Shown piece by piece: positions 19,710-37,700 of a stretch of DNA of 64,000 bases. A model generated the notes under the pieces. The model saw only the letters and a program-made list of their open reading frames with translations. It searched no databases and was not told where the DNA came from. The position numbers and the translations under genes are program-made. The stretch lies in the IMG/VR virus record IMGVR_UViG_3300045988_160113, positions 64,001-128,000 of that record, one strand, 5' to 3'. Every line of letters begins with the position of its first letter. The first letter of the stretch is position 1. This DNA comes from a virus.

Positions 19710-20057
19710 ATGGCGCAAGTTATCAAGACTACGTTTAAGTTCCGTCGTAATACAGCAGAATATTGGAAGAATACAAATCCAGTTCTTGCTGACGGCGAAC
19801 CTTGTTTTGAACTTGATACTGGTAAACTAAAAATTGGTAATGGCACTACTGCGTATAATGATTTGAAGTATATCAATGGTGATTCAGTTCAAATTGAAGT
19901 TGCTACAAAGGATATTATTGGCGCAGTTTTGAGTTCTGATGAAAAGAATCAAGTTTCTGTTGATGAAAGCGGTCACATGGAAGTCAATGAAATTGGAGTT
20001 GAAAAACTAAGTGATACTGTTGGTGTTACTTTAGTTATTGATGGTGGTTCTTTTTGA
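19710..20057 (+). CDS. tail-fibre-associated protein with conserved N-terminal fibre module
   Basis: FKFRRNTAEYWKNTNPVLADGEPCFELDTGKLKIGNGTTAYNDLKYI. Confidence 0.6.
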   Translation: MAQVIKTTFKFRRNTAEYWKNTNPVLADGEPCFELDTGKLKIGNGTTAYNDLKYINGDSVQIEVATKDIIGAVLSSDEKNQVSVDESGHMEVNEIGVEKLSDTVGVTLVIDGGSF

Positions 20058-20081
20058 AATAACTAAATAGGAGGGAGACTA

Positions 20082-21194
20082 ATGGATAAGAAAGTTTTGA
20101 CCACTACGATTCAGTTGCGCCGTGCGACTGAGGTACAGTGGGAAGCTATCAAAGATAGTTTCATTCCTGCCGTGGGTGAACCTTGTGTTACTCTTGATGG
20201 TGATAATGCTGGCCAATTAAAAATTGGTGATGGTGTTACTCCTTGGGGTGAACTAAAATATTCTGGTGTTCATCTTGATGTACTCAAGATATATGGTGAT
20301 TCCGTAGAAGATACTTCTATGTTTATTGACGGTGTAAAGTATGATACTGCCGCAGAAGCAATCAATGCTGTTCCTGATGGTGGCACTGTCAAAATGACTG
20401 GCGGTCTCGGTGCAGATGAAATTATCAATGTAGAAAAAAAACTCACTCTCGATATGAATAGTGCGGTTATTGTTGATAATAATAAATGTCCTATGGAAAT
20501 TAGCACTAGTGGTGAACTTACTTTGTCTGGTAATGGTAGTGTTGAGTGTAATAAGAACGCTGAACCTGCTATTAATAACTGCGGCAAGATGATTATTGAA
20601 AATGGTAATTATACTCGTAAGGTTGATGAAAAGAATGATACTTTCTATACTATTCTAAATCATGGTGATACCGTTATTAACAATGGTATTTTTCAAGCAC
20701 CTGGTAATGTATCAAGTATGATTGAGAATGGTTATTGGGATTATAATTCTACCGACCCTAAGTATGGTCATGTTGTTGGAAAGAATGCTGAGACTTGTAT
20801 ATTGACTATCAATGATGGTACTTTTATCAATGCTTTTTATGTCATCAAGAATGATGATAATGGTATTGTAAACATCAATAGTGGTAAGTTCTATGGTACT
20901 ATTTTCCACAATGGTATTGAGATGACCATCAATAATGGATATTTTGAAGTTAGTGATGGAACTTACAATATTGGTCTAAGAAAGTTGAATGACAATATGA
21001 ATGCTGGTAAAACCACTATCAATGGTGGTACTTATATTTCTAATGGTACATCTAATTTCAAAATCAATGATGGCGAACCTGAAGTAATTATCAAAGGTGG
21101 TAAATTCAATAAAGAAGTTCCCGCCAGATTTATCGCTGAAGGATATAAGCAGAGTCTTGTCGATGGTTATTATGTTATAACCAAATCTGAGTAA
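20082..21194 (+). CDS. receptor-binding/depolymerase-like fibre protein (N-terminal fibre module plus beta-helix-like repeats)
   Basis: IQLRRATEVQWEAIKDSFIPAVGEPCVTLDGDNAGQLKIGDGVTPWGELKY; then repeated I(N/K)(N/D/G)G.(F/Y) turns (INNGIF, INDGTF, INSGKF, INNGYF, INGGTY, IKGGKF). Confidence 0.65.
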   Translation: MDKKVLTTTIQLRRATEVQWEAIKDSFIPAVGEPCVTLDGDNAGQLKIGDGVTPWGELKYSGVHLDVLKIYGDSVEDTSMFIDGVKYDTAAEAINAVPDGGTVKMTGGLGADEIINVEKKLTLDMNSAVIVDNNKCPMEISTSGELTLSGNGSVECNKNAEPAINNCGKMIIENGNYTRKVDEKNDTFYTILNHGDTVINNGIFQAPGNVSSMIENGYWDYNSTDPKYGHVVGKNAETCILTINDGTFINAFYVIKNDDNGIVNINSGKFYGTIFHNGIEMTINNGYFEVSDGTYNIGLRKLNDNMNAGKTTINGGTYISNGTSNFKINDGEPEVIIKGGKFNKEVPARFIAEGYKQSLVDGYYVITKSE

Positions 21195-21207
21195 GGAGGA
21201 ATGAGTT

Positions 21208-21579
21208 ATGTTCAATATTGCTTATGCTAATAAAGATAAAATTCAAAATAGTATTGCTCAAGGCGTCATTCCTGCTGAAAGTTTGATTATTACCAATAAT
21301 GAGGAAGGTAAGGCTGAACTCAGTTACTATGATGAAAATGGCAATTTAAAGAGTATTGTTAAGAAAACTCAGTTTGAAAGTGAAGCAGAAGCTCGTCTTT
21401 GGACTGCTAAATATAATTATACTGGTGAGAATATTAGTGTCTACGATGCTAAAAGCGGCCAATGGAATAGTTATATTGTTAGTGTTGGTGGCGATATCAA
21501 TAAGATTGCTAAAGCCGAAGATGTTGAGTCTTTCATGGAAGACTTGATTATTGATGGCGGCGGTGCTCCTCTAAAGTAA
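21208..21579 (+). CDS. hypothetical tail-associated protein
   Basis: 123 aa within the fibre block, AAGGAGG RBS. Confidence 0.55.
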   Translation: MFNIAYANKDKIQNSIAQGVIPAESLIITNNEEGKAELSYYDENGNLKSIVKKTQFESEAEARLWTAKYNYTGENISVYDAKSGQWNSYIVSVGGDINKIAKAEDVESFMEDLIIDGGGAPLK

Positions 21580-21586
21580 AGGAGGA

Positions 21587-22111
21587 GTGAATATTGTGGC
21601 AAAATTAATCAATACTACTATCAAACTGAGAAGGGATAATGATTATAACTACAGTAAAGTAGCAGATAGTTTTATCCCCATGAAAGGCGAGCCAGTACTT
21701 GTAGATACTGAACAATATGGACTTAGATTCAAAATTGGTGACGGTGTCACTTCTTATGGTGCGCTTGCTTATGCTGATGATAATAATAATGTAGTTTTAC
21801 TTGGTTATTATCTGAATAGTAAATTTTATATTGATAGCACTTATACAGTTGAATTAGAAAAAAATGAAAATAAACTGTATATTGATAAGAATACTTATAC
21901 AGTATATATTTGGGATAAAGAGAATTATATTCCACTTAGTCCCGAAGCTACTGAAACTGTTGCGGGCATGATGAAACTTTATCAAACTTCTGGTAATAAT
22001 ACTGATGGTACTATGAGCCAGAAAGCTATTACTGAAGGCGTAAATGCTATCAAATTTGAATTAGATGGGCAAGATAAAGAGTGTCTTGTTCTTGACCTCC
22101 CTTGGGACTAA
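21587..22111 (+). CDS. fibre protein with N-terminal fibre module
   Basis: IKLRRDNDYNYSKVADSFIPMKGEPVLVDTEQYGLRFKIGDGVTSYGALAY; GTG start (21587 or 21596). Confidence 0.6.
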   Translation: MNIVAKLINTTIKLRRDNDYNYSKVADSFIPMKGEPVLVDTEQYGLRFKIGDGVTSYGALAYADDNNNVVLLGYYLNSKFYIDSTYTVELEKNENKLYIDKNTYTVYIWDKENYIPLSPEATETVAGMMKLYQTSGNNTDGTMSQKAITEGVNAIKFELDGQDKECLVLDLPWD

Positions 22112-22174
22112 GGGAGTAAATTGATACAAATATGGAAAACCACATTGTAAATAAAATTGAAAGGAGATTTTATT

Positions 22175-23845
22175 ATGGCTGATATTTCTAAAATCAAGCT
22201 TGCTAACGGCACAACTGTTACTTTGAAAGATGTTCAAGGTCGCACTGATATGACTACTCTTCTTGGTAAACATGCTCTTGAATCTCTTGGTGCTGCCGCT
22301 TGGAAGGCAGTTGCCACTGAAATTTCTGGTGAAGGCCTTGTTGATGCTTCTGTTGTTAAGGCCTATGTTGATTCTCAAGTTGGGCAAATTCATAGTTTTG
22401 ATGTTGTAATTGATGCCGATGGTGGAGCTACTGGTCCTTCTGTGGCTGCTTCTAAAGACACTATGTATAAGATTTACATGGTTGCTGATGCTCAAGCTTC
22501 TGCTGGTACTTATATTGAGTGGATTACTATTCGTTCTGGGGTTAAAGACCCTTATACCTATGCTTGGGAAAAAATTGGTTCCACCAAGACTGACCTTAGT
22601 GGTTATATTTCTAATACTATTACCATTGCTGGTATTCGACTTAACAGAGATATTTCTGTCTCTGACCTTCAGAAAGCTCTTACTCTTGGTTCTATGGCCT
22701 ATGCTGATAAAGCTTCTGGTTCTGGCTCCGTTGAGACTGTTGATAGTATTACCATGAAAGAAGTCACTGTTGCTGGTAATGCTGCTGTTACTTTCAAGGC
22801 TGCTGATGCTACTCTCACTAAGGCTAATTATACCCCTGCTGGTAAGGTTACTGGTTCTGCCATTTCTGGAGGTTCTATTGCTGTTACTTTGAAGGATTCT
22901 GCTACTAAGACTGCGGCCACTCTTAGCACCTCTGAGTTCACTCCTGCTGGTACTATCGCCGCCAAGGAGGGTGGTTCCTTCTCTGCTTTGAAGTCTGCCG
23001 CTTTCGGCGCTTCTGAAGATGGTGTTCAGATTGAGGGTACTGTCAGTGCTCCTGCAATTTCTCTTACCGCTGCTGACAAGACTTTTGCTACTGGTTTGAC
23101 TGGTGGTAGTAAGGCTTCCTTTACTGAGGGCGCTTTTACTCCTGCCGCAATTCAGGATGGTTTTTATACTGCTGGTAAGGCCGCTACTTGGACTGGTGCT
23201 GATTATACCGCTCCCAGTATGGGTGAGGCTTCCAAAGCAAAGTTTGCTTCTGAGGGTATTGTCGCCAGTCTTGATGCTGAAGATGCTGAATGCCTAGTAT
23301 TTACCACTGCTGGTACTGCTGATGCTGTTACTGCTCAGGGCGCCTTCAATGCTGGTAATGTTAACTTTGGTACTTTCAATGGTGGTTCTGCTACCGTTAT
23401 CGATACTACTAAGTTCTCTGGTGGTTCTAAGGATGCTGATACTTTCGTTGCTAATGAACTTCAGACTGCTACTACTGGCAAGGTAAGTGAAGTTTCTGCC
23501 GCCGCTCTTGCTAATGCTCCTGTATTCACCGGTGAGAAGTATGCTATTGCTACTACTACTGATACCGCTCTCAAGGATGTCGCCTTTACTGCTACCAATA
23601 GTGCTACTATTGTTGATAAAGTTGAGTATGTCAAGCCTGAAATTGATGCTGCTACCTTTACTGGTACTGCTGCTACTCTTGGCTTTACTGGTACTGAGGT
23701 TGAGAATGCTCTTGTTACTAGCGTTAGTTATGATAAGGCCGATACCATTGCCGCATTTAGTGTTGCTGTTACTCCTGAGACCGATATTATCAAGAAGACT
23801 GCTAAAACTGTTGAGGTTGAAGTTTCTCCTGTCGCTAAGCAGTAA
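22175..23845 (+). CDS. Ala/Thr/Gly-rich tail fibre protein
   Basis: MADISKIKLANGTTVTLKD N-terminus, a motif shared with the next two small ORFs; 556 aa, low complexity; ATG 22175 has an AAAGGAG RBS. Confidence 0.65.
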   Translation: MADISKIKLANGTTVTLKDVQGRTDMTTLLGKHALESLGAAAWKAVATEISGEGLVDASVVKAYVDSQVGQIHSFDVVIDADGGATGPSVAASKDTMYKIYMVADAQASAGTYIEWITIRSGVKDPYTYAWEKIGSTKTDLSGYISNTITIAGIRLNRDISVSDLQKALTLGSMAYADKASGSGSVETVDSITMKEVTVAGNAAVTFKAADATLTKANYTPAGKVTGSAISGGSIAVTLKDSATKTAATLSTSEFTPAGTIAAKEGGSFSALKSAAFGASEDGVQIEGTVSAPAISLTAADKTFATGLTGGSKASFTEGAFTPAAIQDGFYTAGKAATWTGADYTAPSMGEASKAKFASEGIVASLDAEDAECLVFTTAGTADAVTAQGAFNAGNVNFGTFNGGSATVIDTTKFSGGSKDADTFVANELQTATTGKVSEVSAAALANAPVFTGEKYAIATTTDTALKDVAFTATNSATIVDKVEYVKPEIDAATFTGTAATLGFTGTEVENALVTSVSYDKADTIAAFSVAVTPETDIIKKTAKTVEVEVSPVAKQ

Positions 23846-23848
23846 TAA

Positions 23849-23953
23849 ATGGCTGAAATTTCTAAAATCAAATTGCCAGACAATACCGAGTACAACCTAA
23901 AGGACGAAGAACTTCGTACTATGTTGGAAATTTTGTTGGGTAATAAAAATTGA
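23849..23953 (+). CDS. small ORF repeating the fibre N-terminal motif (34 aa)
   Basis: MAEISKIKLPDNTEYNLKD...; possibly a truncated fibre paralog. Confidence 0.35.
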   Translation: MAEISKIKLPDNTEYNLKDEELRTMLEILLGNKN

Positions 23954-24032
23954 TAGAGATATGGAACGGGGAGACTCCGGTTTCTCCGTTCCTACTTTAG
24001 AATAGAAACAAAGTGCTTCAAGGAGGGGTAAA

Positions 24033-24221
24033 ATGGCAAAGATAAAGACAATCAAACTTCCCAATGATACCTCTGCGCGCGAAGTATATGATGTTGGCGC
24101 AGTCAGATTTGATGAAAAAGGTAATCTGACAGAAGCACAAAAAACTATCGCGCGTGCTAATGTTGGCGTAGAAGAGTATACTGCCGACGAGATTGAGAAT
24201 ATTTGGAATAGTACAACGTAA
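24033..24221 (+). CDS. small fibre-motif protein
   Basis: MAKIKTIKLPNDTSAREVYD; AAGGAGGGG RBS. Confidence 0.5.
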   Translation: MAKIKTIKLPNDTSAREVYDVGAVRFDEKGNLTEAQKTIARANVGVEEYTADEIENIWNSTT

Positions 24222-24229
24222 GTAAATAG

Positions 24230-24251
24230 GGTGGGAGTAAATACTCCCACC
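24230..24251 (+). terminator. intrinsic terminator
   Basis: GGTGGGAGT-aaat-ACTCCCACC followed by a T-containing tract. Confidence 0.65.
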
Positions 24252-24262
24252 TTAGTAAAAAT

Positions 24263-24291
24263 TTGACGTGGAAAGTAATTTGTGGTATAAT
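24263..24291 (+). promoter_or_regulatory. promoter of the DGR operon (extended -10)
   Basis: TTGACG (24263-24268), 17 bp, TGgTATAAT (-10 at 24286-24291); followed by an untranslated leader of about 260 nt. Confidence 0.6.
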
Positions 24292-24555
24292 TATTATAGT
24301 GGATAAGAAATCTGCCTGGCTTGGAATGATAGTCAGTATAGCCCTTGAAAGTGATAGGGAGAAGAAGTTGACGGACGCTGAGCCAGTGGGTGAAGTGTCT
24401 GTTTTTTTATGTATATATTATATTCTGCGCACTTGTGAATTTTTTATAAAAGAAGATAGTGATTTTTATAGATTTTATACAAGGCCACGCGTAAGGATAG
24501 AAAGAATATAAATTGGCCTGCGCGAAAAGTGTAAGAGATAATAAAGGAGGTACAA

Positions 24556-24768
24556 ATGAGTAAGAATGTGAATGCTTGTAAAAGCGACAATACTGAAAAC
24601 TGGAATAAGGCAGTAAATTTTGTGCCTTCAAAGGGAGAAGTAATTATTTACTCTGATGTTGAACAGATGAAAGTCGGTGATGGAGTAAATAGTGTTGTCA
24701 ATTTGCCATTTAAGGACAGAGAATATGAGGATAAGGAAATTGAAGAGATTTATAATTCTGTGAGGTGA
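24556..24768 (+). CDS. small protein with fibre N-terminal module
   Basis: TENWNKAVNFVPSKGEVIIYSDVEQMKVGDGVNSVVNLPF; AAGGAGG RBS. Confidence 0.6.
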   Translation: MSKNVNACKSDNTENWNKAVNFVPSKGEVIIYSDVEQMKVGDGVNSVVNLPFKDREYEDKEIEEIYNSVR

Positions 24769-24772
24769 AAGT

Positions 24773-25522
24773 ATGGGAATTATTATGTTGAATAACAAGG
24801 TTCTGGTGAATCAGAATAAGATTGCGATGTATATACCTCCTTTTGAACCACCTGCTAAAGGTTCGATTGTAAAGATGAATTTGGATGGGACTGAAAGACA
24901 GTATAGAGTATTGAGTGTAAATGGAAACGTTTGTAAAGTATTAGGAATGTGGGATGACTTTGCAAGCAAATATAATGAAACAAGTACAACTACTACTTTC
25001 GGAAGCACTACTGCTCAGAAATACGAAGGTTCTACTTTAGATACCTATTTAAATACTACTTGGTATAATACATTAACTAGTGCTGCTAAGGCGGCTATTG
25101 TACCTGAGAATGTAGTACAGTATTGTTATAAATATTATGATGAACCAAATACTCCAAATACACCTACATATACATATCAATATCAGCATAACTGGTCTAA
25201 TTCAGATTATGAAAATGCCGATAATGTAGGCAATGTAACTGTTGGAGAACGTAACGTGTTTGCTTTAGATTTGAAGGATATTTTTGATTATATGGGAAAA
25301 GTGTGTATTACATCTGATGAACTAATGATTATGTTTTGGAATAGTACAACTAAAGTATCTAAATATCTATGGTTGCGGTCCTCTCTTGCCGACTATTCTT
25401 ACGGTGCGTGGATTGTGTCCGGTGACACTGGTAATTTGAGCTACACTGGTGTTGCTAATAGTTGTGTCGTGCGGCCCGCGCTTAATCTAGATATGTCCAA
25501 AATCCAGTACACCCTCGTGTGA
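24773..25522 (+). CDS. DGR target protein (receptor-binding candidate with C-terminal variable lectin-fold-like tail)
   Basis: C-terminal WLRSSLADYSYGAWIVSGDTGNLSYTGVANSCVVRPAL is encoded by the VR matching the TR. Confidence 0.85.
   Translation: MGIIMLNNKVLVNQNKIAMYIPPFEPPAKGSIVKMNLDGTERQYRVLSVNGNVCKVLGMWDDFASKYNETSTTTTFGSTTAQKYEGSTLDTYLNTTWYNTLTSAAKAAIVPENVVQYCYKYYDEPNTPNTPTYTYQYQHNWSNSDYENADNVGNVTVGERNVFALDLKDIFDYMGKVCITSDELMIMFWNSTTKVSKYLWLRSSLADYSYGAWIVSGDTGNLSYTGVANSCVVRPALNLDMSKIQYTLV
25373..25484 (+). repeat. DGR variable repeat (VR)
   Basis: Aligns without gaps to TR 26006-26117; all 19 mismatches lie at TR adenines; identical GC-rich 3' end GTCGTGCGGCCCGCG. Confidence 0.9.
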
Positions 25523-25529
25523 GCGGGTA

Positions 25530-25555
25530 GCTGGAGGCGCCTCAGCGCCGACAGC
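25530..25555 (+). promoter_or_regulatory. GC-rich hairpin downstream of VR (candidate DGR homing-enhancing structure)
   Basis: GCTG-ga-GGCGC-ctca-GCGCC-ga-CAGC inside an isolated GC-rich tract (25521-25566) in AT-rich DNA. Confidence 0.5.
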
Positions 25556-25618
25556 GTCCGCGGAGGAAAATATTTTCTAAAAATTATCAAATAACATTTT
25601 ATAAGGAGATTTTATTCA

Positions 25619-25993
25619 ATGGCTGAATTCAATCTTATCAATCGTGCAGAAAATATGGTTGACTATTTATTAACAATTACAGATAAAGCACCTAAAAAAC
25701 TTCGCTCAGATATTATCCCAGAACTTCGTAGAGCAAGTTTCAAATGTATTCAAGCAATCATTAAAGCTAATAATTGTCCACTTGACAAAACTCAACCTTA
25801 TTATACTGAACTTAGAAAACAATACCAACTTGAAACTAAAAGTTTTCTTCAAACAATTAGTGCTTATTCTGAGATTTGTATGAAGCATAACTACATTACT
25901 AAGAAACAATTCGATGTACTAAACGACCATATTTTCAAATGTCAAGATACCCTTATAAAATGGATGACTTCAGATGAAAATCGTTTGAAGTAA
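25619..25993 (+). CDS. avd: DGR accessory variability determinant (Avd-like four-helix-bundle protein)
   Basis: 124 aa basic helical protein located between the target gene and the TR, the canonical DGR position. Confidence 0.7.
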   Translation: MAEFNLINRAENMVDYLLTITDKAPKKLRSDIIPELRRASFKCIQAIIKANNCPLDKTQPYYTELRKQYQLETKSFLQTISAYSEICMKHNYITKKQFDVLNDHIFKCQDTLIKWMTSDENRLK

Positions 25994-26005
25994 CAGGTAT
26001 ATAAC

Positions 26006-26117
26006 TTGCGGTCCTCTAATGCCGACAATTCTAACAATGCGTGGAATGTGAACGGTAACAATGGTAATTTGAACAACAATGATGTTACTAATAGTAATGT
26101 CGTGCGGCCCGCGATTA
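26006..26117 (+). repeat. DGR template repeat (TR)
   Basis: Asn-codon rich (AAT/AAC) copy of the VR, 13 nt after the avd stop and upstream of the RT. Confidence 0.9.
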
Positions 26118-26260
26118 GGAAATAAAACAAAGATTTGTTTATAGTAACATGGGTTCTATACAATATCTTTTTTCTAAGGAGTTATATCCCTTCTGTAAAA
26201 AGAAAAATATTACTTGTGTATGATTATATCGTAACTATGTAATCTGCACTTCTTAGGAGG

Positions 26261-27193
26261 TTGCACAAGTTGTATAAAGAAATTTTGTGTAATTTTGATA
26301 ATATTTATAAAGCTTATAAAATAGCTCATAGAGGAAAAACAGATGATAAAGAAGTAATTGAGTTTGATAAAGATAAGATATATAATTTGAAAAAATTACA
26401 AGAAAAACTATTGAATAAACAATGGGATGAAATATTTACCTATTATAGGTTTGTAATTACCGACCCGAAGAAAAGAACTGTTGATGCTTTACATTTTGAA
26501 GGTAGAATAGTTCAACACGTTCTTTGTGATTTGATATTGAGACCTTACTTTGAAAGAAGATTGATAAAGGAAAATGCGGCTTGTAGAATAAATAAAGGAA
26601 CTGAGTACGCAGTGAATTTATTGAAAAAAGGTATTATTGAATATTATAAGAAAAATGATGACGGTTATGTTCTTCAAGCCGATGTTCATAAATATTTTCC
26701 AAGTATTGATAGAAAGAAATTGAAGGAGATAATTGATTATCCAAATAAAGAGATTTTAGAATTGATTCATTGGATTATTGATTGCGCGCCTGGCAATGGT
26801 ATTCCTATTGGTAATCAGTCTTCACAATGGTTTGCTTTATATTATTTGGATAAAATTGATAGAATTATCAAAGAGAAGTATAGATGTAAGATTTATGTCA
26901 GATATATGGATGATTTGATAGTTATAGATAAAAGTAAAGATAAACTAAAAAGAATTTTAGGTGATATTATACGAATCGGCCGAGAATTCGGATTGGAATT
27001 CAATGGAAAGACGCAAATATTCCCGCTAAGAAAAGGAATTTGTTTTTTGAGTTGGAAGTTCATTAGAAAAGAAAATATAATAAAACTGTTGAATCCAAGA
27101 AAGAAGTCAGGGAAAATAAAGAAGATAAAAGAAATTTTCAATGAAGGACCTGATAAGTTTGGGAGCGTTTTCAGTCTATGCGCGCCTACTTAA
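26261..27193 (+). CDS. DGR reverse transcriptase
   Basis: GIPIGNQSSQWFALYYL (DGR-type IGxxxSQ motif); YVRYMDDLIV (YxDD); non-ATG start (TTG 26261 or 26270) after GGAGG. Confidence 0.9.
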   Translation: MHKLYKEILCNFDNIYKAYKIAHRGKTDDKEVIEFDKDKIYNLKKLQEKLLNKQWDEIFTYYRFVITDPKKRTVDALHFEGRIVQHVLCDLILRPYFERRLIKENAACRINKGTEYAVNLLKKGIIEYYKKNDDGYVLQADVHKYFPSIDRKKLKEIIDYPNKEILELIHWIIDCAPGNGIPIGNQSSQWFALYYLDKIDRIIKEKYRCKIYVRYMDDLIVIDKSKDKLKRILGDIIRIGREFGLEFNGKTQIFPLRKGICFLSWKFIRKENIIKLLNPRKKSGKIKKIKEIFNEGPDKFGSVFSLCAPT

Positions 27194-27263
27194 GATTAGG
27201 AAACACTTACTATTTTAGAAAGAAAAGACTGATATATAATTATATATAAAGGAGGTCACCTAT

Positions 27264-28082
27264 ATGAAATATGTTGGCGAAAATGCCCTCAAAAAATGGA
27301 CTTCATTAGTCAAGTCCGACATAAAGAAAAAACTCGACAAAAACCAAGGCACTGCTAATTCTGGCAAAATTCTTGGTGTCAATGCGACTGGTGAAGTTGC
27401 ACCTACTGATACTGAGGTTGCTACTCTGGTGGACGTCCCCAATGGGATTGTAAAGGGAGATGGGAGTACACTGAGTGCGGCAGTAGCAGGGACGGACTAT
27501 ATGGCTCCAGTTACCGGTGGTTCTTCCGGTCAAGTGCTGACGAAAACCGCCGATGGGCAGGAGTGGGCAGACGCGGCGGGGGGCGATGTGTTCTGGATTC
27601 ACGCGACGTTGAGCGGGGCTACCGTTACCGCAGACAAAACCCCCAGCGAAGTCAAAGAAGCAATGGTAGCTGGGAAATTATGCCTTTTGGATATTGGTTT
27701 TCCATATCCAACATTGGTTGGAGGCGATGTGCGGAATGTGTCGGGTATTCCTCAAAGCATAATATTTACAGCAGTTAAAGAGAAAAGTAAGGATTCAGAA
27801 GCAGGAACAGTCTACTCAGTGACATGCAGTTTTACAGTCGATGCATGGCAGGCTCTCACAAAAACCATTATCCCAAGAATACCTATACCGAATAGCTCCA
27901 ACGAGGGCAAATTTGTAAAATCGATCTATGATGATGGTGACGAGGCGTATTATGCACGCTGGCAACCCATCGCCCCCTCCGACATCGGCGCTATCGCAAG
28001 CGGCAACATCGTCAAGCAGACGCTTGTGAACGTTGAGACCACGCCGACCGAGAACTACGCCATCAACTGGCTGTTCGGCTAA
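27264..28082 (+). CDS. tail fibre protein, compositionally chimeric
   Basis: AT-rich N-terminus; GSTLSAAVAGTDYMAPV fibre motif; switches to GC-rich coding from about 27430. Confidence 0.65.
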   Translation: MKYVGENALKKWTSLVKSDIKKKLDKNQGTANSGKILGVNATGEVAPTDTEVATLVDVPNGIVKGDGSTLSAAVAGTDYMAPVTGGSSGQVLTKTADGQEWADAAGGDVFWIHATLSGATVTADKTPSEVKEAMVAGKLCLLDIGFPYPTLVGGDVRNVSGIPQSIIFTAVKEKSKDSEAGTVYSVTCSFTVDAWQALTKTIIPRIPIPNSSNEGKFVKSIYDDGDEAYYARWQPIAPSDIGAIASGNIVKQTLVNVETTPTENYAINWLFG

Positions 28083-28092
28083 GGAGGCGCGC

Positions 28093-29223
28093 ATGGCTAC
28101 ATTTACTGTAGAGATAACGCCAGATTCTAGCAACGGTACTATCGCCCACGCAGTCGGAAAGTTTTCCGGAGGGTCAAGCAGCTATAAAGGTCGGCGACGC
28201 ATGAACGTTACCGTCAGCGGCGTCGGGACATTTTCTGCGTTATCGCCGGAGACAAGCGGAGGCGAAAACACTTTTTCTCTCGACATCACGGGGCTGACGC
28301 CGGGGACAACGTACAACTGGAGCGCGTCACTCTACTACAAACATACGTCCGGGGGTTGGGTGACAGCAGGATCGCAGTACGATAAATCCGGAAGCTTTAC
28401 GACGAAAAGTAAAACCCCTACATTACCAAAAACGCTCGTCAACGGCACTGCTTACGACGTTAAGGGCGGGAAGTGCCTCGTCAACGGCACGGTGTACAAT
28501 ATCCTCAAGGGCAGGACGCTTATCGGCGGGACGGGGTATGATATTGCGCTGTCGAGCGCGGGGACAAAGATTGAGACGCTGAACGTGGGACAATCAGTAT
28601 ATGCAAATGTTGGTGGCGTGCGCAAGGAATTCATCGTTGTCCATCAGGGCAAGCCAAGTTCTTTGTACGATGATTCCTGCAATGGCACTTGGCTGTTGAT
28701 GAAGGATATCTACGAGAATAGGCAGTGGAACAGTTCCGATTCCAACGTATATGAAACCAGCACGGTCAACACTTACCTTAACGGGCCGTTTCTTGGGCTG
28801 TTTGACTCTAACATTCAAGGGATTATCAAACAGGTCAAGATACCGTACCGCAAAGGTGGCGGCAGCGGCACTGACCAGTCCGGCGCAAATGGCCTGTCCG
28901 CGAAGATATTTTTGTTGTCTGGTTACGAAGTAGGCTGGACGACCAGCAACCACGAGTTGTTCCCACAGGATGGCGCGAAGCTGTCCTACTTTGAGTCTGG
29001 GACCGGCACGTCCGCCAACAAGAAGCGCATTGCGTACCTGGACGGCTCGGTCGCCATCTGGTGGCTCCGCTCCCCGAACATCGGCTACACCGACGGGGTA
29101 TGGCGCATCAGCGCCGGTGGCAGCTACGACTACAACAACGCATCCCGCTCGTACGGCATCCGCCCCTGCATCATTCTCCCGTCCACTACCCTCGTGGATG
29201 ACGAATTCAATCTTACCACTTAA
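28093..29223 (+). CDS. GC-rich fibre/receptor-binding protein with VR-like C-terminal tail
   Basis: ATG 28093 after AAGGAGG; C-terminal IWWLRSPNIGYTDGVWRISAGGSYDYNNASRSYGIRPCIIL and internal TVNTYLNGPF parallel the DGR target protein. Confidence 0.65.
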   Translation: MATFTVEITPDSSNGTIAHAVGKFSGGSSSYKGRRRMNVTVSGVGTFSALSPETSGGENTFSLDITGLTPGTTYNWSASLYYKHTSGGWVTAGSQYDKSGSFTTKSKTPTLPKTLVNGTAYDVKGGKCLVNGTVYNILKGRTLIGGTGYDIALSSAGTKIETLNVGQSVYANVGGVRKEFIVVHQGKPSSLYDDSCNGTWLLMKDIYENRQWNSSDSNVYETSTVNTYLNGPFLGLFDSNIQGIIKQVKIPYRKGGGSGTDQSGANGLSAKIFLLSGYEVGWTTSNHELFPQDGAKLSYFESGTGTSANKKRIAYLDGSVAIWWLRSPNIGYTDGVWRISAGGSYDYNNASRSYGIRPCIILPSTTLVDDEFNLTT

Positions 29224-29235
29224 AGGAGTGAAACT

Positions 29236-30036
29236 ATGTCAACTTACATCAAAGTCAACAACACCGAATACCCCGCGACCATCACGGGCGAGCACAAAGA
29301 CCGCACGTGGGGTGAGCGCGAGGTCAAGAACATCCGCCTGACGATGACCGCCACCGAGGCGGCGGCGCTGCTACCCGACAACACGCCGTGGAGCATCGTA
29401 CAGCGCGACACCGTACCTAAGTACGATGAGGACGGCAAGCCCACGGGCGAGACCGAGGAGGTCGTCAACGAGTGGGACAACAGCGCGTACAGCCTGAGCG
29501 GGGCGATCACCGACCACCGCGACGGCACGGTCACGGTCAAGATGGGAAAGCCCACGGAGACCGAGAGCGCCAAAGCGACCGTCACCGCCCTTGCTGGCGA
29601 GCCGGTCACATACGCCCGCGCGGTGGAGCTACGCCCCATTATCGAGCAGACAGCGGTCAGCCTGAGCGACGGCGAGGCGGCAAGCGTGCCGGAACTCATC
29701 ACAGCATGGGCGTACCCCGTTGATTACGCTGAGGGCGACCGCAGGAGCTACGGCGGTAAGGTGCACAAGTGCCGTCAGGCACATACCTCGCAGGCCGACT
29801 GGACGCCGGACAAGACGCCCGCGTTGTGGGCGGTCATCGACGCCGAGCACGCGGGCACGCAGGCAGACCCCATCCCGGCAGCGCGCGGCATGGAGTACGA
29901 GTACGGCAAGTACTACCTCGACGGCGAGGACGGCAAGGTGTACCTCTGCGAGCGCACGGGCGAGCAGGCGGGCGGCAAGATCACGCTGCAATACCTGCCG
30001 CACGAGCTGGTGGGCAACTATTTCAAGGCGGCCTAA
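29236..30036 (+). CDS. GC-rich structural protein with CBM5/12-like carbohydrate-binding C-terminus
   Basis: YGGKVHKCRQAHTSQADWTPDKTPALWAVI resembles the aromatic CBM5/12 motif; AAGGAG RBS. Confidence 0.5.
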   Translation: MSTYIKVNNTEYPATITGEHKDRTWGEREVKNIRLTMTATEAAALLPDNTPWSIVQRDTVPKYDEDGKPTGETEEVVNEWDNSAYSLSGAITDHRDGTVTVKMGKPTETESAKATVTALAGEPVTYARAVELRPIIEQTAVSLSDGEAASVPELITAWAYPVDYAEGDRRSYGGKVHKCRQAHTSQADWTPDKTPALWAVIDAEHAGTQADPIPAARGMEYEYGKYYLDGEDGKVYLCERTGEQAGGKITLQYLPHELVGNYFKAA

Positions 30037-30167
30037 GGTCGCAGAAAGGGAGCGAACCAATGGGAGATTTGGCAAGGGTCGTATCGGTGTGCTCGGAGAT
30101 CACGGTTATCCTCAGTGCGTAAAGTAAGAGTCCAACAAAATTTCAACAAAAATTTTTCTCTCGAAAT

Positions 30168-30196
30168 TTGACTTTTCTTCAAACTTCAACTATAAT
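30168..30196 (+). promoter_or_regulatory. promoter cassette
   Basis: TTGACT (30168-30173), 17 bp, TATAAT (30191-30196). Confidence 0.65.
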
Positions 30197-30292
30197 ATAA
30201 TTAGAGAGTGGGAAGAGAACACTCTCCTACCTTATTTACTTATTTTTCTTTCTCTTCCCACTCTACTACATTATACTATGGAGGAATTTACC

Positions 30293-30646
30293 ATGTCTGA
30301 ATCCGCTCATCATGCTCCTGCGCCCGTTCCGCAACCGATTCCAGTTTATAAAACCGTCGATATTTCTACAGTCAAACGACAAGGTGATACTTGGTTACTA
30401 AACTCTCAACTCACCTATACCGATTCTCAAAACTTCTCATCTGTCCATTTTATCTCAAATGGTCAATCATTTACCGCTATTTCTCATTACCCAAAAGACA
30501 ATTCCGAATGTCTTTATTATGACCTCATCAAAGTCAATAACGGCTCTCCATTTTGGCTTGATGATAACTATCGAGTAATATCACTTACTCATAAACCAGA
30601 TAAGAAATTACTCGCCTGGCTTACTGCTAATGGCGTAAAGATATAG
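30293..30646 (+). CDS. hypothetical protein
   Basis: ATG 30293 (MSESAHH) lies 8 nt after GGAGG; the track start at 30278 contains that RBS. Confidence 0.55.
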   Translation: MSESAHHAPAPVPQPIPVYKTVDISTVKRQGDTWLLNSQLTYTDSQNFSSVHFISNGQSFTAISHYPKDNSECLYYDLIKVNNGSPFWLDDNYRVISLTHKPDKKLLAWLTANGVKI

Positions 30647-30653
30647 ATTTTTA

Positions 30654-30680
30654 GGAGAGCGGAAGCTCTTCTTTTTTTAT
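30654..30680 (+). terminator. intrinsic terminator
   Basis: AGAGC-ggaa-GCTCT followed by TTCTTTTTTT. Confidence 0.6.
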
Positions 30681-30692
30681 AGGAGGAATATA

Positions 30693-31484
30693 ATGACAGA
30701 ACAAAACCTGCGTAGGCTAGTAGTAGACACATTCTGTTCCTATAATGGTGCCAAACAGAATTCTACTAAACACAAAAACCTTATTGACACATACAACACA
30801 ATTATCCCTCTTCCTCGTGGAGTGAAGATGACTTACTCCATGTCTTGGTGTGCGGCAACAGTAAGCGCGATTTCACAGAAGCTTGGACTGACAGATATTC
30901 TTCTTCCTGAGTGTTCCTGCTCCAAAATGATTGAAGCGTATCAAAAAATTGGCCGCTGGGAAGAGCGTGATAACTATGTTCCTCAGATTGGCGACTTAGT
31001 TATGTATGACTGGCAAGATGGAAGTGATTATGTTAGTGTAGATAATACCGGTGCACCCGACCATGTTGGTATGGTGGTTGATGTGAATAAGGCTTCGAAA
31101 ATGATGAGAATTATCGAAGGGAATAAAGGAACTCCATCAACTTGTGGATATCGATCACTACAAATCAATGGACGATTTATTAGAGGATTCTGTTTACCAG
31201 ATTATGCAAAGGCTGCTAAGACATACAAGACAAGTTCCACTACAAAAATTGAATATTGTAGCGTAAACCTACCAGTTCTCACTCAAGGCGCGACTGGACA
31301 AACTGTAGAGACACTACAAGTTATACTGCGCGCGCTGGGATATAAGATTGATTTAGATGGTTCTTTCGGTCCTGCGACGGCGAATGCACTCAGTCAGTTC
31401 CAGAAAGGGAGTGGCCTAGCGGTTGATAAGTCCTGTGGACCTCTTACATGGACCGCTTTGATTACAGGAGGAGAATTGAAATGA
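30693..31484 (+). CDS. endolysin: CHAP/NlpC-P60-like hydrolase plus PG_binding_1 domain
   Basis: Candidate catalytic Cys in MSWCAATV and His in PDHVGMVV; C-terminal LRALGYKIDLDGSFGPATANALSQFQ. Confidence 0.8.
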   Translation: MTEQNLRRLVVDTFCSYNGAKQNSTKHKNLIDTYNTIIPLPRGVKMTYSMSWCAATVSAISQKLGLTDILLPECSCSKMIEAYQKIGRWEERDNYVPQIGDLVMYDWQDGSDYVSVDNTGAPDHVGMVVDVNKASKMMRIIEGNKGTPSTCGYRSLQINGRFIRGFCLPDYAKAAKTYKTSSTTKIEYCSVNLPVLTQGATGQTVETLQVILRALGYKIDLDGSFGPATANALSQFQKGSGLAVDKSCGPLTWTALITGGELK

Positions 31485-32467
31485 AATACTATGTATCTAA
31501 TGGTATCAAAATTATTGAATGCGCGCCCAGTGAATTCAAAGTGGTCATGGTGAATCAACACAAGAAAAATGTGCGCAAGTCCACTTTTGTAAATGCGAAT
31601 TTCTTTGCGGGTGGGCAGAAACTCAACAATGAAGTATTCACGTTACCAGTAAATCACCTTATTTGTGATTATGAAGCAAGTGGAAACTCGGAGCGGATTC
31701 GTAATGAGCAGCGTGGCACTTTCAAAGGTAATAAATATTACTATGATTCTTACTCTTACGGCGCACCCACTGACCAATTCTATCATAAAACCTTGACTGT
31801 CTTGGCTATCAAGAACAAAAAGCCAAGCATCTTTGATATGGCTGTATTGGATAAGTCATATGAATATCTTGTTGCTGGTATTCCAGTAATGAAGAATGGC
31901 AAGGATGTAAAGTGGAAGACTTATGTTTCTAAGCAAGGTTGGACTGGTGGTGAGCTATATGGAACCTATCACATTTTTGCTGGTTTGAAGAATGGAACTG
32001 ACACTATTTACCTAATGAGTTGGAAAACTACTTCTTCAAATTTGATTTATAGTGGTGAAGCATTTAGAAGGTTCTCAGCGATGGGTTTTAGGGATGTCAT
32101 CAAGCTTGATGGCGGTGGCAGTGAGATTATGAGGTATAACAATGTTACCAAGCACGCGACTGCTGAAAATCGGCAAATCAGCGCCATTATTGAGGTAGTT
32201 GGTAAAGAAGTTGCTACAACTCCAAATCGTCCACAGAGCAAGGCTAATCCATACGCAGTCCCCACCAAGGCTCTCAAACGTGGCTCGACTGGTAATGGAG
32301 TTCGCTGGATGCAGTTCCAACTAAATAAAGCTGGATTTACTTGTTCTATTGATGGCTCTTTCGGCCCAGCAACTGAGAAGGCACTCAAGTCCTATCAATC
32401 TGCGCGCAGTCTCGAAGTTGATGGAAGCTGTGGTCCTGCTACTCGCGCGGCATTGAAGAAGGAATAA
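31481..32467 (+). CDS. second cell-wall-binding lysin-like protein (phosphodiester-glycosidase-like plus PG_binding_1)
   Basis: VIKLDGGGSEIM motif; C-terminal LNKAGFTCSIDGSFGPATEKALKSYQ; ATG 31481 has a GGAGGAG RBS and overlaps the upstream stop. Confidence 0.6.
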   Translation: MKYYVSNGIKIIECAPSEFKVVMVNQHKKNVRKSTFVNANFFAGGQKLNNEVFTLPVNHLICDYEASGNSERIRNEQRGTFKGNKYYYDSYSYGAPTDQFYHKTLTVLAIKNKKPSIFDMAVLDKSYEYLVAGIPVMKNGKDVKWKTYVSKQGWTGGELYGTYHIFAGLKNGTDTIYLMSWKTTSSNLIYSGEAFRRFSAMGFRDVIKLDGGGSEIMRYNNVTKHATAENRQISAIIEVVGKEVATTPNRPQSKANPYAVPTKALKRGSTGNGVRWMQFQLNKAGFTCSIDGSFGPATEKALKSYQSARSLEVDGSCGPATRAALKKE

Positions 32468-36279: not shown

Positions 36280-36356
36280 GGCACTGTAACCCAATTGGCA
36301 GAGGTAAATCACTCAAAATGATTGAAGTATGAATTCGAATTTCATCAGTGCCACCA
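36280..36356 (+). tRNA. tRNA with anticodon CAA (Leu by code) but short variable arm
   Basis: GGCACTG/CAGTGCC acceptor, A73, encoded CCA; AATCA-CTCAAAA-TGATT anticodon arm; ATGAA-TTCGAAT-TTCAT T arm; 3-bp D stem with 11-nt loop; 5-nt variable region. Confidence 0.65.
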
Positions 36357-36452
36357 TAAAGAATTTGGGATAGAGCAGAAAAGCGCACCTGCTTGATAAG
36401 AGTAACTCCCTCTTCCCTTATTCTTATCTTATGGAGTTAGTAAGGAGTAAAA

Positions 36453-37154: not shown

Positions 37155-37362
37155 TTATTCCTACTTTATTGGCGATCGTGTTTTTGTAAAGGATTATGGT
37201 GTTGGAACTATCACCAAGATTGACGAGAAGTCGCGTGACTTCACCTATTTCGTCCGTTTCAAGGGACACGCAAGAGGCTGGTTCCCTGAGTATCGTCTGA
37301 GCGAGTATGTGGAACCAGTTGTGAAGGTAGAATCTTCTGATGAGGAAGTATCTACCCTGTAA
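37147..37362 (+). CDS. hypothetical protein
   Basis: 71 aa, ATGA-type overlap. Confidence 0.5.
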   Translation: MNNYSYFIGDRVFVKDYGVGTITKIDEKSRDFTYFVRFKGHARGWFPEYRLSEYVEPVVKVESSDEEVSTL

Positions 37363-37382
37363 ATCCATTATCGACTAACTTT

Positions 37383-37448
37383 TCGCGGCCTTGTGTAAAT
37401 TGCTTCATTTATAGATAGATTTTTTGGTAAATTTATACAAGGCCGCGA
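37383..37448 (+). repeat. long inverted repeat / stem-loop
   Basis: TCGCGGCCTTGT...ACAAGGCCGCGA (12 bp, extendable) around a loop of about 40 nt. Confidence 0.6.
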
Positions 37449-37490
37449 TAAGAGTTTGCTCTGCGCGCAGAATGTGAGAAAGGAGTAATT

Positions 37491-37697: not shown

Positions 37698-37700
37698 AAT

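What the first reader, a model, noticed from the sequence alone, without database searches (positions are those of the whole stretch)
24263..27193. Complete diversity-generating retroelement in the tail-fibre block
**Organisation.** The order is canonical: target gene 24773-25522, Avd-like gene 25619-25993, TR 26006-26117, RT 26261-27193.

**VR and TR.**
- VR (25373-25484) and TR align without gaps over about 112 nt.
- All 19 differences fall at TR adenines, for example TR AAT/AAC codons against VR CTT, TAT, TAC, GGT, ATT, TCC, GAC, ACT, AGC and TGT.
- No non-A position differs.
- The shared 3' end, GTCGTGCGGCCCGCG, is a plausible IMH.

**Other elements.**
- The RT has the DGR-type IGNQSSQ and YMDD motifs.
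- A GC-rich bulged hairpin (25530-25555) sits in an isolated GC tract about 45 nt downstream of the VR.

**Implication.** The variable residues lie in a WLRS...VRPAL lectin-fold-like tail, which implies programmed receptor-binding diversification.
Basis: partly seen in the sequence, partly recalled or inferred. Interest (0 to 1): 0.75.

Follow-up and report, generated by a model that had tools for sequence, protein, structure and literature searches.

The report
Phage DGR with a frameshifted RT
This is a genuine diversity-generating retroelement that rewrites the tip of a gut-phage tail protein, of an already known type, but in this genome its reverse transcriptase has a one-base deletion and the variable region seems to have stopped changing.

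Summary
VR 25373-25484 and TR 26006-26117 align without gaps over 112 nt, and all 19 differences fall at TR adenines (P about 1e-12). The gene order is target (DUF6273), hairpin, Avd, TR, spacer, RT.

The word "complete" does not hold. The RT gene has a 1-nt deletion: TTT at 27158-27160, where five related contigs have TTTT. This replaces the last 29 conserved residues, the end of the thumb, with 10 unrelated ones. The lost C-terminus is still readable in the -1 frame up to 27249.

The deletion is probably not an assembly error. The same 307-aa RT sits on 7 contigs, and the four retrieved come from four sample accessions. All four carry exactly the window's VR, although two differ from the window in flanking genes.

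The two closest contigs with an intact RT are identical to each other over 2,596 nt of cassette but differ at 22 of 112 VR positions. Across 57 target homologues, variation peaks at the TR-adenine codons.

So the family's DGR is active, and this lineage's copy is most likely a recently disabled, frozen one. Other relatives lack Avd-TR-RT altogether. DUF6273 targets of gut-phage DGRs are already published. This is a new member of a known kind.

The parts
24263..24291 (+). Promoter-like site TTGACG-17 nt-TATAAT with an extended -10 TG. It is followed by a leader of about 265 nt.
   Evidence: It matches 11 of 12 consensus positions and is the best site in 24000-27500. This is a consensus match only. 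Rfam finds nothing in the leader.
24556..24768 (+). Small 70-aa Mtd_N-like protein, 4 nt upstream of the target gene.
   Evidence: Pfam Mtd_N E 2e-4, which is below the curated cut-off. A 70-72-aa gene sits directly upstream of the target in L001, L002, L004-L009, L090, L092-L097, L099, L100 and L109-L112. The stored gene calls tag it Mtd_N in L001, L002, L090 and L092-L097.
24773..25522 (+). DGR target gene, 249 aa. A DUF6273 domain covers residues 73-240, with the VR at its C-terminal end.
   Evidence: Pfam DUF6273 E 1.9e-13. AF2 model pLDDT 93.4, pTM 0.89. Foldseek hits are the IgAse structure 9qa6 (E 1e-5) and DUF6273 phage proteins (E down to 5e-21).
25373..25484 (+). Variable repeat (VR). 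The mutagenised positions are 25385-25464.
   Evidence: 112 nt ungapped against the TR, with 19 mismatches, all at TR adenines. Family-wide entropy averages 2.5 bits at the 20 codons with a TR adenine, against 0.27 at the other VR codons.
25466..25499 (+). 3' target-recognition region. A GC-rich element shared with the TR spans 25466-25480. The VR-specific flank CTTAATCTAGAT... that follows is the IMH candidate.
   Evidence: 15 nt are identical in VR and TR, and homology ends at 25481-25486. The flank is conserved in all family VRs. A C-to-A change at repeat position 100 (25472) is present in both TR and VR of the L001 lineage. This places the cDNA transfer boundary 3' of 25472.
25523..25561 (+). 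GC-rich interrupted hairpin or cruciform. Stems are 4+4+5 bp and the loop is CTCA. It starts 38 nt after the end of VR/TR homology.
   Evidence: DNA fold -14.7 kcal/mol, z -3.07, 0 of 200 shuffles as good. It is conserved in all cassette-bearing relatives, with one compensatory C-G to T-A pair change in L090. It is absent from four cassette-less lineages. The loop is not the published GRNA consensus.
25619..25993 (+). Avd-like accessory gene, 124 aa.
   Evidence: phrog_3206 'Avd protein of DGR' E 1.1e-9. Pfam bAvd scores 22.3 bits, below the 40-bit cut-off. It lies between target and TR. There is no sequence hit in the PDB.
26006..26117 (+). Template repeat (TR), non-coding. It has 14 AAY codons in the VR frame. 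None of the 37 full codons has an adenine at the wobble position, and no stop codon can arise.
   Evidence: It is identical in L004-L009, L099 and L100, and differs at 2 positions in L001-L003.
26118..26269 (+). Spacer between TR and RT. By analogy with the Bordetella element it is presumed to be the 3' part of the DGR RNA, used for priming and RT binding.
   Evidence: It shows 1 difference in 152 nt against L001, where the RT differs by 2.0% and avd by 3.5%. RNA fold z -2.5. The function is inferred only.
26270..27193 (+). Reverse transcriptase ORF as it stands: 307 aa, of which 297 are native and 10 are out of frame.
   Evidence: RVT_1 E 5.8e-12 and phrog_1423 E 1.8e-80. Best PDB hit is bRT 8ub7, E 4.9e-34. 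IGNQSSQ and YMDD are present. The exact 307-aa product is on 7 contigs.
27158..27160 (+). Frameshift site. The window has TTT where the intact alleles have TTTT.
   Evidence: GATAAGTTTGGGAG in the window and in L004-L007, L099 and L100. GATAAGTTTTGGGAG in L001-L003, L008 and L009.
27160..27249 (+). Stranded, out-of-frame remnant of the RT C-terminus (residues 298-326 plus the stop codon).
   Evidence: tblastn gives a second HSP, residues 298-326, at 100% identity in another frame. The motif S..a.L..GNTy.F is conserved across RT homologues.

Best explanation
This is a canonical phage diversity-generating retroelement. By inference from the Bordetella BPP-1 system, it works as follows:
- An RNA spanning the avd 3' end, the TR and the spacer is reverse-transcribed by the RT-Avd complex, with random misincorporation opposite TR adenines.
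- The cDNA replaces the VR at the 3' end of a DUF6273 (C-type-lectin-like) tail protein gene.
- The GC-rich 3' element, the IMH and the downstream hairpin guide this replacement.
- The design can reach up to about 3e19 protein variants at 19 codons.

In the lineage this window comes from, a 1-nt deletion in a T4 run shifts the RT reading frame after residue 297. This removes the last 29 residues, the end of the thumb subdomain. The element is therefore most likely a recently disabled DGR whose VR is frozen in its last diversified state. Sister phages with the intact allele are still diversifying, and other relatives have lost Avd-TR-RT altogether.

**Shown:** the anatomy, the adenine bias, the frameshift and its recurrence, VR stasis versus VR turnover across contigs, and the family-wide hypervariability pattern.

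**Inferred:** the biochemical mechanism, that the truncation abolishes activity, and that the target binds a receptor.
For: - **Adenine bias.** All 19 VR/TR mismatches fall at TR adenines, P 1.3e-12.
- **TR design.** There are 14 AAY codons, none of the 37 full codons has a wobble adenine, and no stop is possible.
- **RT identity.** RT homologues at 32-56% identity sit beside adenine-biased TR/VR pairs in 65 of 80 IMG/VR loci. The best solved-structure match is Bordetella bRT.
- **Frameshift.** The window has T3 where relatives have T4. The intact relatives' RT is 326 aa and 98% identical, and the lost C-terminus is readable at 100% identity in the -1 frame.
- **Recurrence of the frameshift allele.** The exact 307-aa product is on 7 contigs. 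The four retrieved come from four sample accessions and have different contig-naming styles (NODE_, k119_, Logan). All four have a VR identical to the window's. L005 differs by 5.7% in the fibre gene and L006 by 2.4% in orf272.
- **Matched control.** L008 and L009 have an intact RT and the same TR. They show 0 differences in 2,596 nt outside the VR but 22 inside it. The window differs from them at 5 positions outside the VR and 22-26 inside.
- **Family-wide pattern.** Mean entropy is 2.5 bits at the 20 TR-adenine codons, 0.27 at other VR codons and 0.35 elsewhere.
- **TR-to-VR transfer.** A C-to-A change at repeat position 100 is present in both TR and VR of the L001 lineage.
- **Why the truncation should matter.** The bRT thumb contacts the template:primer duplex, and the 'Thumb Ring' RNA wraps around it (bioRxiv 10.1101/2023.10.23.563531).
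- **Recurrent targets lack the cassette.** All four other target proteins checked that recur identically on 6-16 contigs have no adjacent Avd-TR-RT.
Against: - No biochemical or read-level data exist here, so a truncated RT with residual activity is not excluded.
- Assemblies give consensus sequences, so low-frequency VR variants would be invisible.
- Some frameshift contigs are 100% identical to the window (L004/L007 and L099) and may not be independent. That leaves about three distinct strains.
- The intact-RT contigs L001-L003 also share a single VR, so VR identity across a few samples is not proof of inactivity by itself.
- Only 64 kb of a genome of about 135 kb was seen, so a second RT acting in trans cannot be ruled out. 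None is present in the window.
Confidence: 0.72

Rival explanations
1. The DGR is fully active. The C-terminal truncation is tolerated, or the full-length RT is restored by ribosomal or transcriptional slippage at the T run. Diversification is ongoing but not visible in consensus assemblies.
For: - All catalytic motifs and 297 of 326 residues are intact.
- The rest of the cassette (TR, spacer, Avd, hairpin) is undamaged and nearly identical to active relatives.
- The intact lineage L001-L003 also shows one VR in three contigs.
Against: - The lost segment carries the most conserved C-terminal motif of the family and maps to the thumb of bRT.
- AAG TTT GGG is not an X XXY YYZ slippery heptamer, and T3 is too short for polymerase slippage. 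This is inference from established frameshifting rules.
- There are zero VR changes among strains whose flanks have diverged by 2-6%. Two intact-RT contigs with identical cassettes differ at 22 VR sites.
Confidence: 0.15
2. The frameshift is a sequencing or assembly artefact, and the real genome has an intact RT.
For: It is a single-base length difference in a homopolymer, which is the classic site of such errors.
Against: - The same T3 allele, as the exact 307-aa product, is on 7 contigs. The four retrieved come from four sample accessions and have different contig-naming styles.
- Five related contigs from the same sources (ENA and Logan assemblies) read T4.
- A 3-4-nt run is not error-prone on short-read platforms (general knowledge).
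Confidence: 0.05
3. The cis RT is dead, but the VR is still diversified in trans by another DGR RT. That RT would be encoded elsewhere in the genome of about 135 kb, or by the host or a co-infecting phage.
For: - Only 64 kb of the genome was examined.
- Relatives keep a VR-like target and hairpin without any adjacent cassette (L090, L092).
Against: - There is no second RT in the window.
- The VR is identical in all retrieved frameshift contigs.
- Cassette-less targets recur identically on up to 16 contigs, which suggests no trans diversification.
- DGR RTs depend on their cognate TR-spacer RNA.
Confidence: 0.05
4. It is not a retroelement at all. The 112-nt repeat would be an ordinary diverged duplication lying next to an unrelated RT.
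For: None beyond the bare existence of a repeat.
Against: - All 19 mismatches fall at adenines of one copy (P 1.3e-12).
- The adenines are confined to codon positions 1 and 2.
- Family-wide variation tracks those codons.
- The same change appears in both TR and VR at position 100.
Confidence: 0.01

Closest known systems
Bordetella phage BPP-1 DGR (mtd-avd-TR-brt)
   Same: - The gene order is the same: target, avd, TR, RT.
- TR-to-VR differences are adenine-specific.
- The VR sits at the C-terminal end of a lectin-like receptor-binding domain.
- A GC-rich element lies at the 3' end of the VR, followed by a VR-specific flank.
- A GC-rich hairpin lies downstream of the VR.
- The RT aligns to bRT (8ub7) at E 4.9e-34.
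- The spacer of about 150 nt after the TR is comparable to the 140-nt Sp.
   Different: - The target is a 249-aa DUF6273 protein, not the three-domain Mtd. The Mtd_N-like module is a separate 70-aa gene.
- The hairpin is interrupted (4+4+5 bp) with loop CTCA rather than GRNA. It starts 38 nt from the VR end, against the published range of 4-34.
- The RT here is frameshifted.
DUF6273-target DGRs of human-gut phages: Faecalibacterium phages Lelie, CP11, Roos and Pioen (PMC11792537) and the metagenomic phages nd4 and nd12 with 'tentaclins' (PMC10743442)
   Same: - The target family is the same, DUF6273, with the VR at the C-terminus of the domain.
- The setting is gut phages.
- RTs of this group are among the best INPHARED hits, at 36-38% identity.
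   Different: - RT identity is only 36-38%.
- The genome is much larger, about 124-135 kb, with tRNAs and topoisomerase II.
- A single VR is served by this TR. The second DUF6273 gene downstream is not a target of it.
- The RT is frameshifted and the VR is static.
Degenerate DGRs: cassettes with defective or missing RT, and 'orphan' VRs
   Same: The TR/VR pair is recognisable while the RT is compromised. Relatives lack the cassette altogether.
   Different: Here the decay is very recent. It is a single-base deletion, and the downstream codons are still 100% intact. It can also be compared with near-isogenic active copies.

Membership tests
Diversity-generating retroelement (DGR) | A TR/VR repeat pair whose differences are (almost) all at TR adenines | tested here: met
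   19 of 19 mismatches fall at TR adenines over 112 nt, P 1.3e-12.
Diversity-generating retroelement (DGR) | A DGR-clade reverse transcriptase with the [I/L]GxxxSQ motif and a YxDD catalytic site, encoded next to the TR | tested here: met
   IGNQSSQ and YMDD are present. The best PDB hit is bRT at E 4.9e-34. 65 of 80 loci with homologous RTs carry adenine-biased repeats.
Diversity-generating retroelement (DGR) | An intact RT reading frame (needed for an autonomous, active element) | tested here: not met
   A 1-nt deletion at 27158-27160 replaces residues 298-326. It recurs on 7 contigs.
Diversity-generating retroelement (DGR) | An accessory variability determinant (Avd or HRDC) | tested here: met
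   A 124-aa ORF lies between target and TR. It matches phrog_3206 'Avd protein of DGR' at 1.1e-9. The Pfam bAvd hit is below threshold at 22 bits.
Diversity-generating retroelement (DGR) | VR at the 3' end of a target gene that encodes a variability-tolerant ligand-binding fold (usually C-type lectin) | tested here: met
   The VR covers codons 201-237 of 249. DUF6273 E 1.9e-13. The AF2 model has pLDDT 93. The only significant PDB match is IgAse 9qa6, whose NTD is described as a CTLD. The aligned range within 9qa6 was not shown, and there was no direct Foldseek hit to Mtd or TvpA, so the fold assignment is indirect. The literature assigns a C-type lectin fold to DUF6273.
Diversity-generating retroelement (DGR) | cis target-recognition elements: a GC-rich 3' end of the VR with IMH, and a downstream GC-rich hairpin with a 4-nt GRNA loop | tested here: inconclusive
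   The GC-rich shared element and the VR-specific flank are present. The hairpin is present and conserved, with one compensatory change, and is absent from four cassette-less lineages. However, the stem is interrupted, the loop is CTCA, and the distance is 38 nt. The function was not tested.
Diversity-generating retroelement (DGR) | Evidence of ongoing mutagenic homing (VR heterogeneity) | tested here: not met
   For the window lineage, the VR is identical in all four retrieved T3 contigs. For sister contigs with an intact RT the feature is met, with 22 VR differences against 0 background, and it is met family-wide. Read-level heterogeneity cannot be tested with these tools.
Pfam DUF6273 (PF19789) | Score above the curated gathering threshold | tested here: met
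   51.1 bits against a 23.5-bit cut-off, covering profile positions 22-171 of 172.

The most novel reading that the evidence does not exclude
This phage family holds a natural decay series of one DGR:
- an intact cassette with rapid VR turnover;
- a single-base RT thumb truncation with a frozen VR (this window);
- a clean 1.66-kb loss of Avd-TR-RT with the hairpin kept;
- loss of the hairpin as well.

All four states sit on otherwise closely related tail modules. If this holds up, it gives an in-situ loss-of-function test that the RT C-terminal thumb helix is required for mutagenic homing. It would also allow measurement of natural DGR turnover rates, and of the fitness cost or benefit of switching diversification off, from existing metagenomes. 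A more speculative variant is that the T3/T4 tract acts as a reversible on/off switch.
Probability: 0.3. Interest if true: 0.5.

Novelty: new member of a known kind. Interest (0 to 1): 0.3.

Why it matters
As a DGR, it adds nothing categorical. Gut-phage DGRs with DUF6273 lectin-like targets are already documented.

Its value lies in two points.

**A caution.** A cassette that looks complete by eye, and would probably pass motif-based detection, has an RT that is most likely non-functional. Inferring "programmed diversification" needs a check of the RT's full length against relatives.

**A resource.** Near-isogenic intact, frameshifted and cassette-less versions coexist in public metagenomes. 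DGR activity, turnover rate and loss can therefore be studied in nature, and the role of the RT thumb C-terminus becomes directly testable.

Tried and rejected
- **IMG/VR exact-pattern scan.** A scan with the TR/VR 5' half, with adenines wildcarded, found nothing. IMG/VR holds only RT relatives at 56% identity or less.
- **INPHARED megablast of 20000-32000.** It found only one 549-bp match, in the GC-rich island and not in the DGR.
- **Rfam.** Nothing in 24000-27400, even at E up to 1.
- **Second VR.** An adenine-tolerant ungapped scan of both strands found none. The second DUF6273 gene at 28033-29223 is not a target of this TR.
- **First AlphaFold run.** It used a shallow alignment of homologues at 78% identity or more and failed with pLDDT 41. 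A diverse alignment fixed this.
- **Foldseek against the PDB.** It gave no direct hit to Mtd, TvpA or classical C-type lectins. The only hit was the IgAse NTD.
- **Avd against PDB sequences.** No meaningful hit.
- **Hairpin in distant DGR loci.** A crude scan for perfect-stem hairpins downstream of the VR in 49 DGR loci, 48 of them distant, showed no shared GC-rich hairpin. Conservation of the hairpin is therefore shown only within the close family.
- **Programmed frameshifting at the T run.** Considered and rejected, because there is no slippery heptamer and the run is too short.
- **TR-VR agreement at repeat position 40.** Considered as evidence of transfer, then downgraded, because the window's TR has an adenine there, so a G in a VR could come from mutagenesis. 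Position 100 is the informative one.


Full report

Yes. Window 25373-25484 (VR) and 26006-26117 (TR) align without gaps over 112 nt. They have 19 mismatches, and every one lies at a TR adenine. With 34 adenines in 112 positions, the probability of that placement by chance is 1.3e-12. An adenine-tolerant scan of both strands of the whole window finds no other copy.

In the reading frame of the target gene, the TR holds 14 AAY codons plus GAC, GAT, ACT, AGT and ATT. None of the 37 full codons has an adenine at a wobble position, and no adenine substitution can create a stop. The theoretical repertoire is about 3e19 proteins.

So are the shared GTCGTGCGGCCCGCG and the RT motifs IGNQSSQ and YMDD.

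The finding's start coordinate, 24263, coincides with the best sigma-70-like site of the region: TTGACG-17-TGgTATAAT, 11 of 12 positions.

**2. What are the parts?**

- **Target.** It is a DUF6273 protein (Pfam 1.9e-13, residues 73-240).
- **Avd.** It matches phrog_3206 'Avd protein of DGR' at 1.1e-9. The Pfam bAvd match is below threshold.
- **RT.** It matches RVT_1 and phrog_1423 at 1.8e-80. Its best solved-structure relative is the Bordetella DGR RT (8ub7, E 4.9e-34).
- **RT family.** Of 80 IMG/VR loci that encode RTs 32-56% identical to this one, 65 contain an adenine-biased repeat pair by a simple detector. The RT therefore belongs to the DGR clade.
- **Neighbours.** An 857-aa protein upstream has tail-fibre hits. 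Several Mtd_N-like proteins are present, including a 70-aa one 4 nt upstream of the target. Two endolysins lie downstream. "Tail-fibre block" is a fair description.
- **Genome.** Related contigs reach 124-135 kb. The window also encodes topoisomerase II subunits, a DNA ligase, an RNA ligase and seven tRNAs.

**3. The RT is frameshifted.**

In INPHARED, RT matches stopped at residue 265-276 of the 310-aa ORF. Translating all three frames showed a DGR-RT-like C-terminus...ERFQSMRAYLRLGNTYYFRKKRLIYNYI*, in the -1 frame downstream of the ORF's last 10 codons.

Restoring one T gives a protein that is 98% identical over its whole length to P0001. P0001 is a 326-aa RT from related contigs. At the DNA level:

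- The window reads GATAAGTTTGGGAG at 27152.
- L001, L002, L003, L008 and L009 read GATAAGTTTTGGGAG.

tblastn of the restored RT against the window gives two HSPs in two frames. The second covers residues 298-326 at 100% identity.

The likely start is TTG 26270, 9 nt after AGGAGG. That makes the product as it stands 307 aa, with 297 native residues.

The lost segment contains nearly invariant positions, S..a.L..GNTy.F. By alignment to bRT it is the end of the thumb subdomain. In the bRT-Avd-RNA cryo-EM structures the thumb contacts the template:primer duplex and is encircled by the 'Thumb Ring' RNA.

AAG TTT GGG is not a slippery heptamer, and a T3 run is too short for transcriptional slippage. 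I therefore do not think the frame is restored. This last point is inference.

**4. Is the frameshift an artefact?**

This is unlikely. The exact 307-aa product is recorded on 7 contigs. The four retrieved come from ERZ1755967 (NODE_123), ERZ19693459 (k119_151078, 135 kb), SRR11649986 (124 kb) and SRR27975523, and their contig names follow different styles. ENA and Logan assemblies also give T4 in five other contigs.

L004/L007 and L099 are 100% identical to the window, which probably derives from one of them.

**5. Is the DGR active?**

At the family level, clearly yes. 1,365 target homologues were found. The top 120 are 78% identical or more, and nearly all are singleton 90% clusters.

In an alignment of 57 of them, Shannon entropy averages:

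- 2.5 bits (mostly 2.5-3.4) at the 20 codons with a TR adenine in position 1 or 2;
- 0.27 bits at the other VR codons;
- 0.35 bits elsewhere in the protein.

The L001 lineage carries a C-to-A change at repeat position 100 in both its TR and its VR. That implies TR-to-VR transfer after the lineages split, and it places the 3' transfer boundary beyond 25472.

For the window lineage, the evidence points the other way. I compared the 2.7-kb cassette (24556-27263) pairwise:

| Comparison | RT allele | Differences outside VR | Differences in VR (112 nt) |
|---|---|---|---|
| L008 vs L009 | both intact, TR identical to window | 0 of 2,596 | 22 |
| Window vs L005 or L006; L005 vs L006 | all T3 | 1-2 | 0 |
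| Window vs L008 or L009 | T3 vs intact | 5 | 22-26 |

L005 and L006 are nonetheless distinct strains. L005 differs from the window by 5.7% in the upstream fibre gene and 1.8% in the downstream gene, and L006 differs by 2.4% in the downstream gene.

This suggested a prediction: targets that recur identically on many contigs should lack a working RT. I checked four such targets, on 16, 8, 7 and 6 contigs (P0196, P0164, P0208 and P0191). All four lack Avd-TR-RT next to the target. Targets next to an intact RT were on 1-2 contigs.

There are caveats. The numbers are small and assemblies are consensus sequences. Some contigs may come from related samples, and L001-L003, which have an intact RT, also share one VR. 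I could not look at reads.

**6. The hairpin.**

Positions 25523-25561 fold as GCGG/GCTG/GGCGC-CTCA-GCGCC/CAGC/CCGC: 13 bp in three segments, at -14.7 kcal/mol. No shuffle out of 200 folds as well.

- It is conserved in all cassette-bearing relatives.
- L090's target C-terminus has diverged, yet the hairpin is kept with one compensatory pair change, C-G to T-A.
- It persists in two lineages that have cleanly lost the 1.66-kb Avd-TR-RT block (L090, L092).
- It is absent from four other cassette-less lineages, where the next gene's ribosome-binding site follows the stop codon directly.

This distribution fits a DGR-associated cis element better than a generic terminator. There is also no U-tract directly after the stem.

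It differs from the published phage consensus of an uninterrupted 7-10-bp stem, a GRNA loop and a distance of 4-34 bp from the VR (PMC3240598). A crude scan of more distant DGR loci did not find a shared hairpin. Its role in target recognition remains an inference.

**7. The target fold.**

AlphaFold with a shallow alignment failed (pLDDT 41). With 61 diverse sequences it gave pLDDT 93.4 and pTM 0.89.

Foldseek against the PDB gives one significant hit, the Thomasclavelia ramosa IgA peptidase 9qa6 (E 1e-5, TM 0.52). The 291-residue N-terminal domain of that enzyme is described by its authors as a C-type lectin-like domain related to Legionella Lcl (PMC12237041). Lcl (8q4e) appears weakly in my list. 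The aligned range in 9qa6 was not reported, so the link to that domain is indirect.

Against BFVD the best hits are DUF6273 phage proteins, down to E 5e-21.

Published work already assigns DUF6273 DGR targets a C-type lectin-like fold, with the VR forming a surface beta-hairpin (PMC10743442). It also maps the VRs of Faecalibacterium phage DGR targets to the C-terminus of DUF6273 (PMC11792537).

**8. Comparison with known systems, and verdict.**

In architecture and inferred mechanism this is a BPP-1-type DGR. By its target it belongs with the DUF6273 DGRs of gut phages. It is a new member of a known kind. Its RT is only 36-38% identical to the best INPHARED phage matches, and the phage is a large, tRNA-bearing, low-GC one, probably infecting Bacillota.

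The element in this particular genome fails one requirement for an autonomous active DGR, an intact RT. It also shows no sign of VR turnover since the deletion arose. I rate it a recently disabled copy with about 0.7 confidence.

Interest is modest. The main added value is the natural intact / frameshifted / deleted series, which makes activity and loss testable from public data.

Noticed in passing
window 27350-30050: A GC-rich island lies directly downstream of the RT. It is 47-69% GC, against about 35% for the rest of the window. It covers most of orf272 (27264-28082), a second DUF6273 protein (28033-29223, Pfam 3.8e-36, phrog 'Hoc-like') and a CBM_5_12 protein (29236-30036). It has no match to the TR. 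Positions 27993-28541 are 90% identical to the unrelated human-faecal phage MT835513. Relatives carry one- or two-domain DUF6273 versions there, or unrelated genes. It looks like a horizontally acquired, mosaic receptor-binding module.
   Followed up: partly
L090 3001-3900; L092-L097; L101-L112: Avd-TR-RT is a presence/absence polymorphism in this phage family. Some relatives have the target plus hairpin, then directly the MKYIGENA... gene, which is a clean absence of about 1.66 kb. Others lack the hairpin too. Their exact target proteins recur on 6-16 contigs, several from pig-gut metagenomes (PRJEB11755).
   Followed up: partly
window 24773-25522 (model mc9172bda009d): The only significant solved-structure match of the DGR target is the Thomasclavelia ramosa IgA1/IgA2 peptidase (9qa6). 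This suggests that the lectin-like N-terminal domain of that gut-bacterial enzyme is related to the DUF6273 scaffold that phage DGRs diversify.
   Followed up: partly
window 43186-43313 (+): A RAGATH-33 RNA scores 129.9 bits, above the gathering score of 120.4, at E 5e-27.
   Followed up: no
window 36280-39796 (+): There are seven tRNA genes: 36280-36353, 38183-38254, and five between 39140 and 39796. Divergent gene blocks switch strand near 15 kb, as the GC-skew turn shows.
   Followed up: no
window 24292-24555: An untranslated leader of about 265 nt lies between the strong promoter-like site and the Mtd_N-like gene. It has no Rfam match. It shows 8 differences in 334 nt against L005, while the cassette itself is nearly identical. 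The 82-aa TTG ORF at 24263-24511 looks spurious.
   Followed up: no
window 26100-26272: In the predicted RNA fold, the TR 3' end (GUGCGGCC) pairs with the last bases of the spacer, just before the RT start (GGUUGCAC). [quoted passage not shown] It rests on an MFE prediction only, z -2.5.
   Followed up: no
L009 4601-4712: One non-adenine VR/TR mismatch occurs in a relative with an intact RT: repeat position 96, VR T against TR C. The same T is present in the VRs of L090, L092 and L098. This is probably an old polymorphism near the 3' transfer boundary, not an RT error.
   Followed up: no
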